DNA of 64,000 bases, taken from the sequence record OZ035790.1; one strand, written 5' to 3'. This document shows, one piece after another, positions 4,133 to 58,994 of this stretch. The stretch comes from Felixounavirus LF110P4. Numbering within the stretch: position 1 is the stretch's first letter; every line of letters begins with the position of its first letter. Both the position numbers and the translations under genes were made by a program. The notes under the pieces were generated by a model, which was not told the origin of the DNA, did no database searches, and saw nothing but the letters and a program-made list of their open reading frames with translations.

Positions 4133-4462
4133 TTAATCTGCCAACCTTAAATTGAAATTAACACCAAATTTTTCACATACTTCCAACATATACTCAAGGG
4201 AGACGTTACCAGTGAGATGGATTATGTTGGATACACGAGCCTGAGAGATACCACAAATTTTAGCAACTTGCTCTTGAGAAAGACCTCTGGATTTAATCTC
4301 TCTCTTAAAACGATGTGCAACGAAGTCTCTCATTTCGTCTACATCCATTGGACAAATATAACTCTCCATTTCAGCCTCTCTATCAGCCTCCCAATCATCT
4401 TGTGGGGCATAAGGGTCAAAAACCTCATTCATCTTTCTTCTTCCGTTTGCGTGAAGTGTCAA
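4133..4462 (-). CDS. helix-turn-helix DNA-binding protein
   Basis: XRE-type HTH-like segment GLSQEQVAKICGISQARVSNIIH. Confidence 0.5.
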   Translation of the reverse strand: MTLHANGRRKMNEVFDPYAPQDDWEADREAEMESYICPMDVDEMRDFVAHRFKREIKSRGLSQEQVAKICGISQARVSNIIHLTGNVSLEYMLEVCEKFGVNFNLRLAD

Positions 4463-4637
4463 TTAATGAATCTATGTTTGTAGCCCTAACCTTTTCACGT
4501 TCATCGTTAAGATAATCATCAAGAGCCTTTTCAATCTGTGAATCATCTTGACAGATGACTGTAAAGACTGTAAAGCCGTCTGTATCGTCAATTATCTTAC
4601 CATAACCGCTTCTGGGATGTAACTTTTTAAGAGCCAT
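4425..4637 (-). CDS. hypothetical protein
   Basis: 70 aa ORF, co-directional, short overlap with neighbour. Confidence 0.35.
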   Translation of the reverse strand: MALKKLHPRSGYGKIIDDTDGFTVFTVICQDDSQIEKALDDYLNDEREKVRATNIDSLIDTSRKRKKKDE

Positions 4638-4638
4638 A

Positions 4639-5022
4639 TCAGATACCTGTGCAGCTTCTGTTTTCTAAGAAATACTCAACACCATACATGGCTTTTTGCA
4701 TCAAATCTTCTTTAAACTGAATACGATGATTGAGCATAGTTTGTACATCAATATCGTCATGGTGTTTCTCTTTAATATTTGCAGATTGTAGGAAATACTC
4801 TGCAAGAACACGATACTGATAGTCAGTTACCTTATCAGTCATCTCTGTTAAAGACTCTTCAGAGATTGGTTTCAGTAGCTCACCATTAGCTAGAGCAACA
4901 CCTTTTACAATCTGGCAAGTATCTTCTGGAACACCTGACAAGTCCACATTTGGGAGTTCTGTTGCATTGACTGGTAAATTCATTGCCATAACCATTGCAG
5001 CAGCTAATAAAATCTTTTTCAT
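4639..5022 (-). CDS. secreted/periplasmic protein
   Basis: N-terminal signal peptide MKKILLAAAMVMAMNLPVNA. Confidence 0.5.
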   Translation of the reverse strand: MKKILLAAAMVMAMNLPVNATELPNVDLSGVPEDTCQIVKGVALANGELLKPISEESLTEMTDKVTDYQYRVLAEYFLQSANIKEKHHDDIDVQTMLNHRIQFKEDLMQKAMYGVEYFLENRSCTGI

Positions 5023-5039
5023 AATGACCTCAAAGTTAT

Positions 5040-5520
5040 ATTAAATTTTGTATTACATTGAGTATAAAAATAAGCTATAACACCTGACTTGTCAACAGAT
5101 TTTATAGCTTATTTGGCAGATTTTTTATAAGGCTACTGCCATCCTTCCATACCCTACCTTACCACACCTAACCATACCTAACCAAACTACACCATACAAT
5201 ACCTTATTAAAAGACCCTCTTAAAGACCTTTTAAAAAGGTAAGTCTCATTTTAATGTAGCTCCGATTAACTACCCACACCTTACCTCACCTGACCTGACC
5301 TGACCCTACCTAGCATTACCGTGCCACACCTCACTTAAAAACCCTCTTAGAAGACTCTTAAGTGATGTAATCGGATTTTAATGTAGCTCCGATTAACTAC
5401 CCGCACTTTACCAAACCTCACCCTACCCTACCAGACCTTACCTAACCGCGCCGTACCTCATTAAAAGACCCTCTTAAAGACCTTTTAAAAAGGAGCCTCC
5501 GAAGAGGCTACCTAGTCAAC
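5040..5520. repeat. repeat-rich intergenic region with conserved modules and hairpins
   Basis: C/A-rich (ACCTAACC-type) runs; modules AAAGACCCTCTTAAAGACCTTTTAAAAAGG (two copies) and hairpins with conserved loop TTTTAATGTAGC; 3' hairpin GGAGCCTCcgaaGAGGCT acts as terminator for minus-strand gene. Confidence 0.6.
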
Positions 5521-5961
5521 TTAGAAAGGTTTTCTACGTTGCTTGTTAATGTTAGCTTTCATAGCAGCTAAATGGTTTTGCTGTTCAATTAGTCGTGAAC
5601 GTTCTTGATGGCTAAGTACCATAGTGTTCACATTCTCAATCGCTTGAGTGGCTTGCTTTAAAGCACGACCAATCTTACCAGACATTTTACGTTTTGCAAT
5701 AGTTGCTTGATGCTTAGGTTCAACCACACGATAACCAACACCCATTGAAGCAACCAGATAAATCTTCTCTTCTTTAAGAAGCTTCTCAATAAACTTCTCA
5801 AGTCGATTTAAGCGTGTAAGCGCATAAGCCTTCATTTCATCTTCGTACTTAACAATGTCACCTTGATAAGTTGGCTTCACAATACCTAAGAAGGTGTCCA
5901 TCTCAGAATGTGATACAGTGTCACCGTAACTAAACTTTGCTGCTAATGCTTTTGTATTCAT
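5521..5961 (-). CDS. hypothetical protein
   Basis: 146 aa ORF, basic C-terminus. Confidence 0.45.
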   Translation of the reverse strand: MNTKALAAKFSYGDTVSHSEMDTFLGIVKPTYQGDIVKYEDEMKAYALTRLNRLEKFIEKLLKEEKIYLVASMGVGYRVVEPKHQATIAKRKMSGKIGRALKQATQAIENVNTMVLSHQERSRLIEQQNHLAAMKANINKQRRKPF

Positions 5962-5963
5962 AA

Positions 5964-6569
<606 letters not shown>

Positions 6570-6995
6570 TTAGTTGATTGTTAAGTTGTTTGTAAAGAAC
6601 CCTCAATAGAAGACTCTTTAGAAACTTGGTAGATTTTTAACGTGGCTACTACCATCCACCCACACTTTGCCATACCTCACCGCGCCTTACCCGACCTGGC
6701 TGCACCTTGCCTTGCCAAACATCACTTAAAAACCCTATGAGATACCCTATCGAGTATAATTTAAAGGCTCTTAAGTGATGTAAGTCTCATTTTAATGTAG
6801 CTGAGACTAACTACCCATACCCTACTTTACCTTGCCGTACCGTACTTTACCCGACCACACCGGACAATACTTAACCCTACCTCACCCGACCGGACATCAC
6901 TTAAAAACCCTCTTAGAAGACTCTTAAGTGATGCTGGTGAGTACCCGTTGGTCTATGCTGTTCAGTATACTCACCAAATTTTCTATGTCAACAAC
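6570..6995. repeat. second copy of repeat-rich intergenic module
   Basis: Shares CTCTTAGAAGACTCTTAAGTGATG and hairpin AGTCTCAttttaatgtagcTGAGACT plus C/A-rich tracts with region 5040-5520. Confidence 0.6.
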
Positions 6996-6997
6996 TT

Positions 6998-8137
6998 TTA
7001 TTCATAATCTCGTATAATGAGACCAACAGGGAACTGTAAAGAACCCTTACGAGTCATCTTCTGGAACTGAACCGTTAAAGGTTTCCCGATAAACTCTTCA
7101 GGATGCTCAGCAAGATACTGTTTCTTCTCATGAGTAGTCTTCCATGAGACATCTACAAAGACGTTAGGAAGAGTCTCTACAACGAACTTACCATGACCAC
7201 GTTTATCAGTCTTTACACCAGTAACTTTAAACTCTTCAGTGTGCATCTTCTTGTGCTTAATCAAGAAGTATGAACGGTGGCCACACTCATAGAAAGATTC
7301 TTCAGAGATTGAACGGTACATTGCACCTTCAAACTTAGCTTCAACCCACTTATCATGAGCTTCATCAAATTCTTCCCAAGAATTTACACGACGAGACTTA
7401 ACAGGAATAACTTTACAGCCATCTCTGAAGTCATTCAATGGTGAAGTCTCAATAATATCTCTACGCTCAGGCCACGTCTTAGTGCTGTCACAGATATCGT
7501 ACCAGTAAAACTTGAGTAAATGTCGGTCAGGATTGTCTTCATTTTTAATCATGGAGACAATATCTTCTAAGTCCAACCCGTGAGCATAGATTTCACCATC
7601 AAATTCATCAACGTCTTTATGGAGCCTCAACATTGCCATAATGTCAGGTATTAGCTCAGTAGGAATTTTATAAATAGTGTTCTCACGAGAATATGCTGTA
7701 AATACGCTGCCAATACTTAAGTGTCTTGAAATTCTACAACGGACACCATCAAGTTTTGGTTGAGCATCAGCAGGGAACTTCAGATACTTTGCATGGCTAA
7801 CCTTTGCAGCATCATGAGCAAGCTGTACACCTACCTTCTCAGTATTCTGTGCAGACTCTTTTGTGTAAGAATAACCTTTGCGGTCAACTTGCTTTTTATA
7901 CTTAGCAGCAACTTCAAAGAGGGCTTGCTGTTCAGTGTTACGCTCATTCTTTTTACCGATGTTTTTAGGTTCTGCTGTATACTCTTCAAACATCATCTTG
8001 CCATTTTCTTTACCGTAGGTTGTAATAACTTTGTCACCTACAGCAACGCATGACCAGACGTTGAAGGAACCGTCTTTATTTTGTTTGTACAGAATTGTCA
8101 TTTTTAACCTCTGAGTGATACCAAGTGTCACAAGCAT
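6998..8137 (-). CDS. ATP-dependent DNA ligase
   Basis: Nucleotidyltransferase motif I KLDGVR, motif III FDGEIY, motif IV EGAMY, motif V LIKHKK; true start may be internal Met. Confidence 0.65.
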   Translation of the reverse strand: MLVTLGITQRLKMTILYKQNKDGSFNVWSCVAVGDKVITTYGKENGKMMFEEYTAEPKNIGKKNERNTEQQALFEVAAKYKKQVDRKGYSYTKESAQNTEKVGVQLAHDAAKVSHAKYLKFPADAQPKLDGVRCRISRHLSIGSVFTAYSRENTIYKIPTELIPDIMAMLRLHKDVDEFDGEIYAHGLDLEDIVSMIKNEDNPDRHLLKFYWYDICDSTKTWPERRDIIETSPLNDFRDGCKVIPVKSRRVNSWEEFDEAHDKWVEAKFEGAMYRSISEESFYECGHRSYFLIKHKKMHTEEFKVTGVKTDKRGHGKFVVETLPNVFVDVSWKTTHEKKQYLAEHPEEFIGKPLTVQFQKMTRKGSLQFPVGLIIRDYE

Positions 8138-12615: not shown

Positions 12616-12842
12616 ACATTACTGCAAAAAATTATAAAAAGCAAGTTGACAATGCACTTGACAAGGTGTTAATCTTTGCGAAGTGGGTTTTTACTTAAAA
12701 GGTTACTTAACAGTTTAACTATACAGATACTTTAAAACTCTTAAAAGATTATTTAATAGCTTTTAAAAAGCTTTAAAGTATAACGTATAGAATACGTTAA
12801 GATAAAAGATTAAAACTTAATAGTTACTTAAAAGAGGCTTAC

Positions 12843-44123: not shown

Positions 44124-44189
44124 GAAACTTCGTAGTATATTCACAATAGACTAAGCCTTTCTTATCTGGTAAATTTTTCAGGTAAGGAG

Positions 44190-44370
44190 GGCTTTTTCAT
44201 TTCAGATTTGTGCAGGTAGAGTTCTGTAGAGAAATCTATAGAGAAAATTTTGAACTCCAAAGAGAAAATTCATTTTCAAACTGTGCAGGTAATCTCCAAA
44301 GGGTTTTTTCATTTTCAAAACGTGCAGAGAAAAATCAGGTCGGGCAAGAAAAATCATTTTAGAATTGTGC
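44190..44370. repeat. four dispersed copies of a TTTCATTTTCAnnnTGTGCAGGTA-like motif
   Basis: Copies near 44191, 44265, 44303 and 44349 at roughly 40-75 bp spacing. Confidence 0.55.
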
Positions 44371-44410
44371 AGGTAGGTGGGGGTAGGTGGGGGTAGGTGG
44401 GGGTAGGTGG
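44371..44410 (+). repeat. tandem 10-bp G-rich repeat (GGGTAGGTGG x4), G-quadruplex-capable
   Basis: Four perfect or near-perfect tandem units giving successive GGGGG runs separated by TAGGT. Confidence 0.7.
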
Positions 44411-44572
44411 GACTGTCGCCATTTCTCACAAGGCTACCACATCTGAAAATAAAAGTCAACAGAAAAATTTGTAGCGGATTGAAAAATAATTCTTGATTGT
44501 AGTTCTGTTTTGTGGTAGTCGCGCGCACCCGTTTCATTACAATTTTTGCAAAAAATATTTTTAAAAATTTTC

Positions 44573-44601
44573 TTGACTCTTTGAACTGGGTTATCTAATA
44601 T
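44573..44601 (+). promoter_or_regulatory. sigma70-like promoter (TTGACT-17-TAATAT) with upstream A/T tract
   Basis: Near-consensus hexamers with 17 bp spacer, AT-rich UP-like element upstream, 50 bp before ORF 44654. Confidence 0.55.
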
Positions 44602-44653
44602 TTGCATCAGACGGGGCGACAAGCTCAACAACCTTAAACTAGGAGATTCAAAA

Positions 44654-45037
44654 ATGGCATATCGTGCACCTAAATTCATCAACAAAGACAACTTTCGCAA
44701 CGCACTGGAGAAGTCACTTGATGAAAATTTTAAAGGTAACATTATCGTTGTTCACGCATTCAATTTTAAGTATGATGTAAACGGGAATAGAATCAACCAT
44801 TACACGGCAACCATGTTAGATGGTACACTTTCAAGTGAAAAAGTCGTACTAAATGCACTGGCAGGACGTGGAAAGGTATTAGTAAGATGTGATAAGAGAC
44901 GTTATCAGGGCGGTGCATATGGTTATGATGATGCTGTTTACCATCTTGAAAATATGGGCTATCAAGTAGAAAAAGCTGGAGCATCACAAATCATCGGCAG
45001 TGATGGTTATGTAACTATCTTCAAAATTAACAAATAA
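44654..45037 (+). CDS. hypothetical protein
   Basis: 127 aa; preceded by conserved leader CCTTAAACTAGGAGATTCAAAAATG. Confidence 0.45.
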   Translation: MAYRAPKFINKDNFRNALEKSLDENFKGNIIVVHAFNFKYDVNGNRINHYTATMLDGTLSSEKVVLNALAGRGKVLVRCDKRRYQGGAYGYDDAVYHLENMGYQVEKAGASQIIGSDGYVTIFKINK

Positions 45038-45124
45038 AGTACTTTACAAGGGGCTTATAGTTCGATAAAGTAAGCCCCAGATAAAGAGCTTTACCACTCA
45101 ATCCTTAAACTAGGAGATTCAAAA

Positions 45125-45667
45125 ATGAAATGTTATCACGGTACTACTCAAGAAAATTTCCTCAACCTGATTAATAACGGTGATAAACCATCAGGCGCAT
45201 GGAATTGTTCGGATATGGACGGCAATTTTTACGTGTATCCAGAAAATAAAATCTATGGCGACGATGATGAAGAGATAACATCGGAGGGCATTCAGCAAGC
45301 TCTAGGGAACGCCACTATTACGGCGGCCTTCCAGATGAAAACCCAAAATATTGTTATCTTAGAACTCGATATTCCAGATGATGAGCTAAATGATGATTAT
45401 TCTTGTGATAATATGTCGAGTGTAGCAAGTTTTACAGAGTACTTTGATGTAAACTGGATTAAAAAGGTCTATACAACAGAGTTTAACGCTATGTATTCGC
45501 CTTTTTGTCTTCCTTCACTGGATAACCCAAATATGAACTATCTTGATGAGACATTAGAACTACTTGCTAAAAGTGTTCAACAGTCGGACAGTATTCAGGT
45601 TTTTTGTGACATCATAGATACACTGACAGGAAACATTGCAGAAGAGGATTTAAAGAGCTTTTTCTAA
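45125..45667 (+). CDS. hypothetical protein
   Basis: 180 aa acidic protein; same conserved leader/RBS upstream. Confidence 0.45.
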   Translation: MKCYHGTTQENFLNLINNGDKPSGAWNCSDMDGNFYVYPENKIYGDDDEEITSEGIQQALGNATITAAFQMKTQNIVILELDIPDDELNDDYSCDNMSSVASFTEYFDVNWIKKVYTTEFNAMYSPFCLPSLDNPNMNYLDETLELLAKSVQQSDSIQVFCDIIDTLTGNIAEEDLKSFF

Positions 45668-46320: not shown

Positions 46321-46386
46321 ATTACTAATCAACGGGAGGCGATAACCTCCCCACTAAATAAAACCCTTAAACTAGGAGATTCAAAA

Positions 46387-46635
46387 ATGGCAACTATCCG
46401 CGCTACTGTCAATGCCTATGGCTGTTATACTCTGGACGTTAAATTTGATATTGGTGGAACTGATGAGTGTTTTTCATTAGTGAAGACAGTTATCAAACAA
46501 GTTATTCCAGATTATAACCCTACTGATGACTTCTGGAAAGATGCTGTAAAAGAGGCATTAAACGACGAGCATCACTATCATTACTGGGGTGACTTGATTG
46601 TTTCCCTGTACTACAATAAACAAGGTTACAACTAA
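46387..46635 (+). CDS. hypothetical protein
   Basis: 82 aa; conserved leader CCCTTAAACTAGGAGATTCAAAAATG upstream. Confidence 0.4.
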   Translation: MATIRATVNAYGCYTLDVKFDIGGTDECFSLVKTVIKQVIPDYNPTDDFWKDAVKEALNDEHHYHYWGDLIVSLYYNKQGYN

Positions 46636-56062: not shown

Positions 56063-56290
56063 GGCAGACCTACAGCTTTAAGTAAGATGGTACAGTAATC
56101 CATACAACAAGTCAAGAACTATTGCAAGTTAAAAAAGTTGTTGACAAAGTACTTGACAAGGTGTAGGCTTATAAATACTTAGAAGATAACTTAAAAGGTT
56201 CCTCTAAAAAGGCTATTTAAACAGATATCTTTCTGGATATCTATCTTTTATCTTAAAAGCCTTTTAAGAGGTCTTATAAGAGGCATACCA

Positions 56291-58206: not shown

Positions 58207-58324
58207 GTTCTACATAGAAACGAAATGAGGGCTTTTCTAAGATACTGAAAAATATTTTAAAAAAGTTCTTGACAACCACTAAAAAATAATGTTAAAGTGG
58301 TTACATAGAGTTTGAAAAGTTTAT

Positions 58325-58401
58325 CTCTGTTTAGCTCAGCTTGGTAGAGCGTTCCGTTTGGGGCGGTAAGGCCGGAGGTTCAAGTCCTCCAACAGAGACC
58401 A
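58325..58401 (+). tRNA. tRNA-Pro (anticodon UGG)
   Basis: Manual cloverleaf: acceptor CTCTGTT/AACAGAG, T-arm GGAGGttcaagtCCTCC, anticodon loop TTTGGGG, CCA encoded. Confidence 0.6.
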
Positions 58402-58408
58402 AATTAAT

Positions 58409-58486
58409 GTTCCAGTAGACAAAATGGTAAAGTCACCACTCTTTCAAAGTGGATATTTGAGGGTTCAAATCCCTTCTGGAACGCCA
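58409..58486 (+). tRNA. tRNA-Glu (UUC)
   Basis: Acceptor GTTCCAG/CTGGAAC, anticodon stem CCACT/AGTGG, loop CTTTCAA, T-loop TTCAAAT. Confidence 0.6.
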
Positions 58487-58493
58487 GTTTTGA

Positions 58494-58565
58494 CAGAAGA
58501 CCAATTACAGCAAACTTAATCTACTCATCTGAAAGTTAATCGGACAAAGAAGATATTTGGTCTGG
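58494..58565 (+). ncRNA. candidate structured RNA element 1 (bulged closing stem CAGAAGACCAA/TTGGTCTGG)
   Basis: 5' CAGAAGACCAATTACAGCAA and 3' TTGGTCTGG inverted repeat; member of a 4-copy family with covarying stem. Confidence 0.35.
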
Positions 58566-58576
58566 TCATTAAGAAT

Positions 58577-58653
58577 TGCGGGTATAGAGAAAGGGCGTCT
58601 CACATGTCTCATTAGCATGGTATCGGCAGGTTCGACTCCTGCACCCGCCTCCA
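58577..58653 (+). tRNA. tRNA with CAU anticodon (Met/fMet/Ile2 type)
   Basis: T-arm GCAGGttcgactCCTGC, acceptor TGCGGGT/ACCCGCC with 1-72 mismatch, anticodon loop CTCATTA; structure partly irregular. Confidence 0.45.
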
Positions 58654-58659
58654 AATTTA

Positions 58660-58724
58660 CAGAAGACCGTTTACAGCAATATTTATTAAGTTTTTAGCGG
58701 AAAAAATTGAAAGATACGGTCTGG
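58660..58724 (+). ncRNA. candidate structured RNA element 2
   Basis: 5' CAGAAGACCGTTTACAGCAA and 3' ACGGTCTGG; stem covaries (CGT/ACG versus CAA/TTG) relative to element 1. Confidence 0.35.
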
Positions 58725-58737
58725 TAATACTAAACAT

Positions 58738-58814
58738 GGTTAGGAAGCACATAAGGTATGTGCGGTCGCCTGTTAAGCGAATGGCACAGGGTTCGAATCC
58801 CTGACTAACCGCCA
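58738..58814 (+). tRNA. tRNA-Asn (GUU)
   Basis: D-stem GCAC/GTGC, anticodon loop CTGTTAA, T-arm CAGGGttcgaatCCCTG, CCA encoded. Confidence 0.6.
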
Positions 58815-58823
58815 AATTTAAAT

Positions 58824-58911
58824 GTGTCGTTATCCCGTAGATGGTAGCGGTGGGGACTGTAAATCCCTTGTCATTGAGACTCGGTAGGTTCGACTCCTAC
58901 ACGGCACACCA
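58824..58911 (+). tRNA. tRNA-Tyr (GUA), class II
   Basis: 88 nt with long variable arm; anticodon stem-loop GGGGActgtaaaTCCCT; T-arm GTAGGttcgactCCTAC. Confidence 0.6.
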
Positions 58912-58916
58912 ATAAA

Positions 58917-58994
58917 GGTTATGTAGTTTAATTTGGTTAAAATACTCCCCTGTCACGGGAGATGATGAGGGTTCAAATCCCTTCGTAACCGCCA
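58917..58994 (+). tRNA. tRNA-Asp (GUC)
   Basis: Anticodon stem-loop CTCCCctgtcacGGGAG; T-loop TTCAAAT; CCA encoded. Confidence 0.65.

What the first reader, a model, noticed from the sequence alone, without database searches (positions are those of the whole stretch)
5040..5520. Repeated intergenic module with covarying hairpins and C/A-rich tracts (copy 1)
A 480 bp gap inside a minus-strand operon contains ACCTAACC / CCTTACC-type runs (G/U-rich on the transcribed strand), two copies of AAAGACCCTCTTAAAGACCTTTTAAAAAGG, and hairpins with a conserved loop TTTTAATGTAGC whose stems covary (AATCGGA/TCCGATT here, AGTCTCA/TGAGACT in the second region). The covariation suggests a structured RNA or a protein-recognised palindrome.
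Basis: seen in the sequence. Interest (0 to 1): 0.55.

Follow-up and report, generated by a model that had tools for sequence, protein, structure and literature searches.

The report
Phage VIPR guide-RNA array
The gap holds three genes for VIPR guide RNAs, a phage RNA-guided DNA-silencing system first described in a 2026 preprint and aimed at a parasitic satellite element in E. coli. It is a real and remarkable element, but it is already known.

Summary
The window is a Felix O1-like phage. The gap 5023-5520, and a second gap at 6567-6997, consist on the minus strand of tandem units. Each unit has a spacer hairpin, then 11-16 pentamers NNGGY, then a ~35-nt tail forming a hairpin plus pseudoknot.

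This is the type II VIPR system of bioRxiv 10.64898/2026.04.26.720920. In that system the NN dinucleotides of each pentamer read double-stranded DNA with a one-base skip.

I reproduced that code independently. Four of the window's five guides match an ~11-kb satellite found in 464 of 5426 complete E. coli genomes, at 28/30, 21/22, 21/22 and 19/22 NN bases. They do so only with a 1-nt skip; other skips and order-shuffled guides reach 15-23.

One tail (5242-5275) is a broken hybrid. One guide (B2) has no target found.

Verdict: already known, and a correct rediscovery from raw sequence.

The parts
6964..6991 (-). Sigma-70-type promoter TTGACA-16-TATACT, directly after the DNA ligase stop and upstream of the first guide RNA. 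It probably drives vrRNA B1-B2, vipr and vap1.
   Evidence: 11 of 12 consensus matches. Function inferred.
6895..6933 (-). Spacer hairpin, type 2: CAUCACUUAA...UUAAGUGAUG, a 15-16 bp stem with G.U pairs.
6783..6898 (-). vrRNA B1: about 16 NNGGY units (6815-6898) plus a pseudoknot tail with hairpin AGUCUCA/UGAGACU (6783-6816).
   Evidence: The target matches 28/30 NN bases in the satellite gene.
6720..6780 (-). Spacer hairpin, type 3: the same outer stem as type 2 with a 41-nt insert.
6627..6723 (-). vrRNA B2: about 12 NNGGY units (6660-6723) plus a tail (6627-6661) with stem GGUAG/CUACC and pseudoknot GUGG/CCAC.
   Evidence: No target found.
5967..6551 (-). vipr: a 195-aa Cas7-like RAMP protein.
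5524..5961 (-). vap1: a 146-aa accessory protein.
   Evidence: 99% identical to the orthologue in phage SUSP1, at the same position (L021). No Pfam or PDB match. Role taken from the preprint.
5487..5509 (-). Terminator-like hairpin plus T-run after vap1. Its T-run overlaps the first spacer hairpin.
5461..5488 (-). Spacer hairpin, type 1: UUAAAAGGUCUU-UAAG-AGGGUCUUUUAA.
5369..5459 (-). vrRNA A1: 11 NNGGY units plus a junction pentamer (5401-5459), then a tail (5369-5402) with hairpin AAUCGGA/UCCGAUU.
   Evidence: Target 19/22 in the satellite.
5329..5367 (-). Spacer hairpin, type 2.
5242..5332 (-). vrRNA A2: 11 NNGGY units plus a junction pentamer (5274-5332), then a hybrid tail (5242-5275) whose hairpin arms do not pair.
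   Evidence: The closest relative has an intact tail on the same guide. Target 21/22.
5207..5234 (-).
5114..5205 (-). vrRNA A3: 11 NNGGY units plus a junction pentamer (5147-5205), then a tail (5114-5148) with stem GGCAG/CUGCC and pseudoknot AAGG/CCUU.
   Evidence: Target 21/22, lying 30-60 nt upstream of the first gene of the satellite's leftward operon.
5067..5095 (-). Sigma-70-type promoter TTGACA-17-TATTTT for the next gene (4639-5022). It marks the end of the VIPR locus and is not part of it.

Best explanation
Window 5114-6991, minus strand, is a type II VIPR (Viral Interference Programmable Repeat) locus of the SUSP1 clade. The reported gap is its downstream array of three guide-RNA (vrRNA) genes.

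Each unit is transcribed from the minus strand into an RNA of about 91-116 nt. The RNA consists of 11-16 pentamers NNGGY followed by a conserved hairpin-plus-pseudoknot tail.

Copies of the Cas7-like Vipr protein (ORF 5967-6551) assemble on the repeat tract and hold the GGY triplets. The exposed NN dinucleotides pair with double-stranded DNA that carries the same dinucleotides separated by one skipped base (NNxNNx...).

Binding blocks transcription of the target. Here the target is an ~11-kb chromosomal satellite of E. coli. Vap1 (ORF 5524-5961) enhances the effect.

Shown here:
- the anatomy of the units;
- the identity and fold of Vipr;
- covariation in the tail;
- the period-5 conservation pattern;
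- matches to the satellite that appear only under the 1-nt skip.

Taken from the preprint on the near-identical SUSP1 system: expression as ~100-nt RNAs, co-purification with Vipr, dsDNA binding, transcriptional repression, and the Vap1 effect.

Inferred: the promoter assignment; that the G.U-rich spacer hairpins between units mark processing or insulation sites; and one Vipr subunit per pentamer.
For: Protein:
- Vipr is 190/195 identical to PDB 36pp 'SUSP1 Vipr protein'.
- The family has more than 500 members of about 190 aa and no Pfam domain.

Synteny:
- Phage SUSP1 (L021) has the same gene pair. Its neighbour protein is 99% identical, with one tract upstream and three downstream, as the preprint reports.

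RNA:
- Over 890 pentamers from 70 unique vrRNAs in 26 loci, the NN positions carry 0.05 and 0.14 bits and the G, G, Y positions carry 1.06, 1.88 and 1.51 bits. Tracts have 9-20 units.
- In the tail, the pseudoknot helix is 100% paired and 3 of 4 pairs change on both sides. In the hairpin, 6 of 7 pairs change on both sides. Slid controls are 28-37% paired.

Targets:
- Matches are 28/30, 21/22, 21/22 and 19/22 NN bases at a 1-nt skip, against 15-20 at skips 0, 2 and 3, and at most 23, 18, 18 and 18 in 200 order-shuffles.
- Of 61 unique guides from related phages, 46 reach at least 80% at skip 1, against 2, 4 and 5 at skips 0, 2 and 3, and 4 when shuffled.
- The B1 site is in frame with the skipped base at the codon wobble position.
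- There is no self-target at skip 1.

System description.
Against: - There are no expression or binding data for this phage. The mechanism rests on one preprint, not yet peer reviewed, and one PDB entry for a 97%-identical system.
- Guide B2 has no target in 20 satellites, and no exact match in IMG/VR or the GTDB species representatives.
- The A2 tail hairpin is broken, so that RNA may be inactive.
- The A2 target site is not in wobble register.
- A terminator-like hairpin lies between vap1 and the downstream array, so how that array is transcribed is unclear.
- The closest relative of this gap was isolated on Salmonella, whereas the targets found are in E. coli.
- I found no homology between the satellite proteins and the 64-kb window, so I could not check the claimed helper-satellite relationship.
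Confidence: 0.93

Rival explanations
1. The region is cis-regulatory DNA or RNA of the operon. Palindromes such as ACCTTTTTAAAAGGT would be operators for the nearby HTH regulator (ORF 4136-4462), and the hairpins would be terminators or attenuators.
For: - A perfect 15-bp palindrome sits in each type 1 spacer.
- An HTH_3 protein is encoded 600 bp downstream.
- A terminator-like hairpin and sigma-70 promoters border the gap.
Against: - It does not explain the period-5 NNGGY tracts with hypervariable NN.
- It does not explain the pseudoknot covariation or the skip-1 matches to the satellite.
- The spacer stems rely on G.U pairs that exist only on the RNA strand.
- It could still hold as a secondary role of the spacers.
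Confidence: 0.03
2. It is a decayed, non-functional relic of a VIPR array: tandem-repeat junk kept by recombination, with no current role.
For: - One tail is a broken hybrid.
- Copy number varies from 1 to 3 in this gap among relatives.
- One guide has no target.
Against: - vipr and vap1 are intact and 97-99% identical to the tested system.
- GGY is kept while NN turns over.
- Four of five guides match the satellite at 86-95%.
Confidence: 0.03
3. It is a replication origin or priming zone. The G-rich transcript would form an R-loop, or the GGT array would act as primase or annealing-protein sites, next to the ligase and polymerase genes.
For: - The locus lies beside the DNA ligase gene and, 3 kb away, the DNA polymerase gene.
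- The non-template strand is G-rich.
- Some unrelated IMG/VR tracts are followed by iteron-like repeats.
Against: - The GC-skew minimum is at about 12.6 kb, not here.
- There are no iterons or AT-rich unwinding element.
- The NN positions carry sequence information that matches a foreign element, which an origin would not need.
Confidence: 0.01
4. It is a protein-titrating or attenuator RNA like the TRAP-binding trp leader or CsrB. The 11 evenly spaced GGU triplets would wrap a ring-shaped RNA-binding protein.
For: There are exactly 11 full NNGGY pentamers in each of the three tracts of this gap, spaced by 2 nt as in TRAP sites. The comparison with TRAP is from my own knowledge.
Against: - The unit number is not fixed. 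The second gap has about 16 and 12 units, and relatives have 9-20.
- No TRAP-like protein is present.
- The partner protein is a Cas7-like RAMP.
- The spacer dinucleotides are informative.
Confidence: 0.01

Closest known systems
Type II VIPR system of Escherichia phage SUSP1 (bioRxiv 10.64898/2026.04.26.720920; PDB 36pp)
   Same: - Vipr is 97% identical and Vap1 99% identical.
- Gene order is the same: vrRNA(s), vipr, vap1, vrRNA array.
- The YNNGG repeats, tail classes and pseudoknot are the same.
- The target is the same E. coli satellite family, read by the same 1-nt skip rule.
   Different: - The host phage is a Felixounavirus, not a Suspvirus.
- There are two upstream vrRNAs instead of one.
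- The set of guide sequences differs.
- One tail is a broken hybrid.
- Nothing has been tested experimentally in this phage.
Class 1 CRISPR-Cas effector backbones (Cas7/Csm3/Cmr4 on crRNA)
   Same: - The guide RNA has a variable part capped by a conserved structured handle.
- Protein contacts interrupt base pairing periodically.
   Different: - There is no repeat-spacer array and no cas1/cas2 or other cas genes.
- The guide information is non-contiguous: 2 of every 5 nt, reading 2 of every 3 nt of the target.
- It is phage-encoded and aimed at a satellite.
- It acts by repression rather than cleavage, according to the preprint.
TRAP-binding (G/U)AG repeats of the Bacillus trp leader
   Same: Triplets repeated about 11 times with 2-nt spacers on single-stranded RNA.
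   Different: The triplet is different (GGY), the unit number is variable, the spacers are informative, and the partner protein is unrelated (RAMP). The comparison with TRAP is from my own knowledge.
CsrB/RsmZ-type decoy RNAs with many GGA motifs
   Same: A small RNA with many copies of a short G-rich motif.
   Different: The GGA motifs of those RNAs lie in hairpin loops at irregular spacing and sequester CsrA. Here the motif has a strict 5-nt period in an unstructured tract, and the RNA guides DNA recognition.

Membership tests
VIPR system (type II, SUSP1 clade) | A Vipr protein: a small (~20 kDa) single-domain RAMP homologue, more than 90% identical to SUSP1 Vipr for clade membership. | tested here: met
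   [not shown]
VIPR system (type II, SUSP1 clade) | An adjacent vap accessory gene, giving a two-gene operon. | tested here: met
   ORF 5524-5961 lies directly downstream of vipr and is 99% identical to the SUSP1 orthologue. Its DNA-binding role was not tested: there is no Pfam or PDB match.
VIPR system (type II, SUSP1 clade) | vrRNA genes made of tandem YNNGG repeats (9-16 units) with conserved GGY and hypervariable NN, in the intergenic regions flanking vipr. | tested here: met
   Five tracts of about 11, 11, 11, 16 and 12 units. Information content is 0.05 and 0.14 bits at NN, against 1.06, 1.88 and 1.51 bits at G, G, Y over 890 pentamers.
VIPR system (type II, SUSP1 clade) | A conserved ~40-nt 3' tail with a hairpin and pseudoknot. 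| tested here: met
   An H-type pseudoknot is supported by changes on both sides in 9 of 11 pairs, with 91.9% of cells paired against 28-37% when slid. Exception: the window copy at 5242-5275 has a broken hairpin.
VIPR system (type II, SUSP1 clade) | NN dinucleotides match natural DNA targets with a 1-nt skip, and there is no self-targeting. | tested here: met
   Four of five guides match at 86-95% NN in E. coli satellites at skip 1 only. Of 61 related guides, 46 reach at least 80%. In the window itself the skip-1 maximum is 15-18. Guide B2 is an orphan.
VIPR system (type II, SUSP1 clade) | vrRNAs are expressed as ~100-nt RNAs that co-purify with Vipr, and the complex binds dsDNA and represses transcription. 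| not testable with these tools
   Shown for SUSP1 in the preprint. Predicted lengths here are 91-116 nt.
CRISPR-Cas locus | An array of identical 23-50-nt repeats separated by unique spacers, plus cas1/cas2 or an effector gene set. | tested here: not met
   The repeat search shows only the 127-nt modules and 5-nt periodicity. The neighbouring ORFs are a ligase, an HTH protein and unknowns.
Rfam RNA families | A match to any curated covariance model. | tested here: not met
   Nothing near a gathering score in 4500-7500, even at E <= 10.
TRAP-type attenuator RNA | Eleven (G/U)AG triplets and a TRAP protein. | tested here: not met
   The triplet is GGY, the unit number varies from 9 to 20, and no such protein is present.

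The most novel reading that the evidence does not exclude
Two details are not described in the text of the preprint.

(1) In these arrays each vrRNA is preceded by a conserved 12-16-bp hairpin that contains G.U pairs. Its loops vary while its stems are kept. It is absent from the satellite-borne vrRNAs. These hairpins could be the maturation signals of type II arrays, for example RNase III sites, playing the role that hammerhead ribozymes play in other VIPR types.

(2) The hybrid tail at 5242-5275 has an intact orthologue in the nearest relative. This suggests that arrays are remodelled by recombination or gene conversion inside the conserved tails, which may be how guides are gained, lost and shuffled without a Cas1-like integrase.
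Probability: 0.35. Interest if true: 0.45.

Novelty: already known. Interest (0 to 1): 0.33.

Why it matters
VIPR is a newly described way of reading DNA with RNA. It uses a non-contiguous code: 2 of every 5 guide bases read 2 of every 3 target bases. Its protein is a minimal Cas7-like protein, proposed to predate CRISPR.

This window adds an independent computational replication of the 1-nt skip code, using a different phage and 20 satellite copies. It shows that the system is standard equipment of Felix O1-like phages: 230 phage records match this gap.

It also maps four predicted silencing sites on a satellite carried by about 9% of complete E. coli genomes. It does not reveal a new kind of system.

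Tried and rejected
Ideas raised before the literature hit, each dropped for the reason given:
- A TRAP-like ring protein binding 11 GGU triplets: the unit number varies.
- A boxA/nut-like antitermination site and an ops-like GGTAG motif: these were resemblances only, and GGGUAG turned out to be the 5' strand of the pseudoknot.
- An R-loop or origin: the GC-skew switch is at 12.6 kb.
- T7-type primase sites (GGGTC/TGGTC): the base after GGT is not conserved.
- Two-tetrad G-quadruplexes: not needed once the code was found, and not tested.
- The spacers as an array of sigma-70 promoters: the scan finds only the two outer promoters, and the -10-like hexamers lack A at position 2.

Searches that gave nothing:
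- Rfam.
- Pfam on the neighbouring proteins, except the HTH protein.
- The Felix O1 genome paper, which lists other repeats only.
- The exact NNx pattern of guide B2 in IMG/VR and the GTDB representatives.
- tblastn of the satellite proteins against the window, and of Vipr and Vap1 against the satellites.
- The box motif AGGGTYTTTTAA, which is not a general promoter-like motif elsewhere in the window.

Full report
**What is there**

The window is a Felix O1-like myovirus (Felixounavirus). Window 4000-7000 matches 251 phage records, the best at 92-94% identity.

The reported gap lies between ORF 5521-5961 and ORF 4639-5022, both on the minus strand, and spans 5023-5520. A second gap of the same kind lies at 6567-6997, between the DNA ligase gene and ORF 5964-6566.

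Read on the minus strand, both gaps are tandem units; the period is 127 nt in the first gap. Each unit has three parts:
- a spacer hairpin;
- a tract of pentamers NNGGY;
- a conserved ~35-nt tail.

The reported gap has three tracts of 11 full pentamers each. The other gap has tracts of about 16 and 12. A scan of the whole 64 kb for the in-phase period-5 signal finds only these tracts: 8-10 of 11 positions, against a background that almost never exceeds 4.

The "hairpin" at 5242-5275 carries arms of two different types and cannot pair.

**How it was identified**

Rfam has nothing here. Pfam and PHROGs give no function for the neighbouring proteins apart from an HTH regulator. The Felix O1 genome paper does not mention these repeats.

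Comparison with 22 related loci showed three things. The flanking proteins are 99-100% identical. The tracts differ in length and in nearly every NN dinucleotide. The GGY triplets are kept.

It returned many unrelated viral contigs with the same degenerate tracts, so this is a general phage element.

A literature search for pentanucleotide repeats in phages then returned bioRxiv 10.64898/2026.04.26.720920. That preprint describes VIPR systems:
- A ~20-kDa RAMP protein (Vipr) and an accessory gene (vap).
- vrRNAs of 9-16 YNNGG repeats with a conserved 3' tail. The tail includes a pseudoknot in the SUSP1 clade.
- The NN dinucleotides pair with double-stranded DNA with one skipped base per unit.
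- The model system is Escherichia phage SUSP1, which is one of my related loci (L021).

**Membership tests**

*Protein.*
- ORF 5967-6551 (195 aa from its ATG) is 190/195 identical to PDB 36pp, "SUSP1 Vipr protein".
- An AlphaFold model built on 48 homologues has mean pLDDT 95.
- ORF 5524-5961 is 99% identical to its SUSP1 counterpart at the same position, so it is vap1.

*Repeats.* I used 70 unique vrRNAs (890 pentamers) from 26 loci. The two N positions carry 0.05 and 0.14 bits. The G, G, Y positions carry 1.06, 1.88 and 1.51 bits.

*Tail.*
- 18 distinct tails align without gaps.
- An H-type pseudoknot fits them. Helix 1 (GUAG/CUAC, GUGG/CCAC or AAGG/CCUU) is paired in 100% of cells, and 3 of its 4 pairs change on both sides.
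- In the 7-bp hairpin, 6 of 7 pairs change on both sides.
- Sliding the partners by 1-3 columns drops pairing from 92% to 28-37%.
- The changes come from a few paralogue classes, so the number of independent events is small.
- The satellite-borne copies add a further stem variant, GUCG/CGAC.

**Targets**

A BLAST of the locus against 5426 complete E. coli genomes found 62 chromosomes with a 70-nt match to a vrRNA tail. These matches lie in an ~11-kb island. The island encodes a serine recombinase, a baseplate protein, a tape measure protein, small unknown genes, and in many copies an HNH endonuclease and/or a Dam methylase. It sits at several integration sites. A conserved part of it is present in 464 genomes.

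I fetched 20 copies and slid the window's five guides over them with 0-3 skipped bases. In the first 14 copies the results at a 1-nt skip were as follows:

| Guide | Best NN match at skip 1 | Highest in 200 order-shuffles |
|---|---|---|
| B1 | 28/30 | 23 |
| A2 | 21/22 | 18 |
| A3 | 21/22 | 18 |
| A1 | 19/22 | 18 |

All other skips reach only 15-20. The six further copies gave the same sites for B1, A2 and A3.

The sites are placed as follows:
- The B1 site lies in the first gene of the satellite's leftward operon, in frame, with the skipped base at the wobble position.
- The A3 site lies 30-60 nt upstream of that gene's start.
- The A2 site lies in a 324-bp gene, not in wobble register.
- The A1 site is intergenic.

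Guide B2 has no target in the satellites, and no exact match in IMG/VR or the GTDB representatives.

Across 61 unique guides from the related phages, 46 reach at least 80% NN match at skip 1. Only 2, 4 and 5 do so at skips 0, 2 and 3, and 4 when shuffled. Under skip 1 no guide matches the window itself. This is an independent replication of the published code.

**Details beyond the published text**

*Spacer hairpins.*
- The other spacers form a 15-16-bp hairpin, CACUUAAGAGUCUUC-UAA-GAGGGUUUUUAAGUG. Both contain several G.U pairs.
- Among relatives the loops vary while the stems are kept.
- The satellite vrRNAs lack these spacers. They are therefore not part of what Vipr needs; processing or insulation is my inference.

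*Hybrid tail.* The hybrid tail of A2 is unique among 23 tail variants. The nearest relative carries an almost identical guide with an intact tail. The window copy therefore arose by recombination or conversion from the neighbouring unit, or by mis-assembly of the tandem repeat.

*Transcription signals.*
- A strong sigma-70-type promoter (6964-6991) precedes the upstream vrRNAs.
- A terminator-like hairpin (5487-5509) sits between vap1 and the downstream array. How that array is transcribed is therefore unresolved.

**Verdict**

The finding is real and non-random, and it is a VIPR guide-RNA array.

The system, including a 97%-identical protein with a solved structure, was described in 2026, so it is already known. 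The mechanism in this phage is inferred by identity to SUSP1 and by the target matches, not measured.

Noticed in passing
window 44124-44653 (+), especially 44190-44411: A 530-nt intergenic region holds four copies of a ~30-nt repeat (..TTCATTTTCAAACTGTGCAGGTA..). It is followed by a G-rich 10-nt tandem repeat, GGTAGGTGGG x3.5, at 44371-44411. The repeat is only half compatible with the YNNGG pattern. Function unknown.
   Followed up: partly
loci L023-L142 (IMG/VR): Degenerate GGTNN tracts are widespread in unrelated viral contigs. They are often in tandem with spacers, or lie just upstream of a ribosome-binding site and ATG. These are probably other VIPR types. One subgroup (for example L054, L068, L071, L082, L094, L139) has a tract ending in GGTAG followed by iteron-like direct repeats inside long open frames. 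I did not explain that subgroup.
   Followed up: no
L143-L156 (E. coli chromosomes), e.g. L144 14974-15075: In 10 of the 14 satellite copies scanned, the copy carries one vrRNA gene of its own: 9-13 units, a tail with pseudoknot GUGG/CCAC, and stem GUCG/CGAC or GGUAG/CUACC. None of the 14 has a vipr or vap1 homologue, so such RNAs would have to use the helper phage's Vipr.
   Followed up: partly
window 5242-5275 versus L157 1855-1880: The hybrid (broken) tail of vrRNA A2 is intact in the closest relative, Salmonella phage vB_Si_GLBO_sp7, which carries almost the same guide. That relative has one upstream vrRNA where the window has two.
   Followed up: yes
window 58300-63600 (+): A dense cluster of repeats with the GGTTCGAATCC T-arm signature, which is the tRNA gene cluster typical of Felix O1-like phages. 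No tRNA scan was run (22 tRNAs in Felix O1 according to PMC3185647).
   Followed up: no
window 12635-12669 and 56130-56164 (+): A 35-nt repeat containing two TTGACA motifs (TAAAAAGCAAGTTGACAATGCACTTGACAAGGTGT). The first copy sits at the divergent-transcription point where GC skew changes sign (about 12.6 kb). It could be an early promoter region or an origin.
   Followed up: no
window 44627-44659, 45098-45130, 46360-46392 (+): Three copies of CCTTAAACTAGGAGATTCAAAAATG, a conserved leader plus ribosome-binding site in front of successive genes.
   Followed up: no
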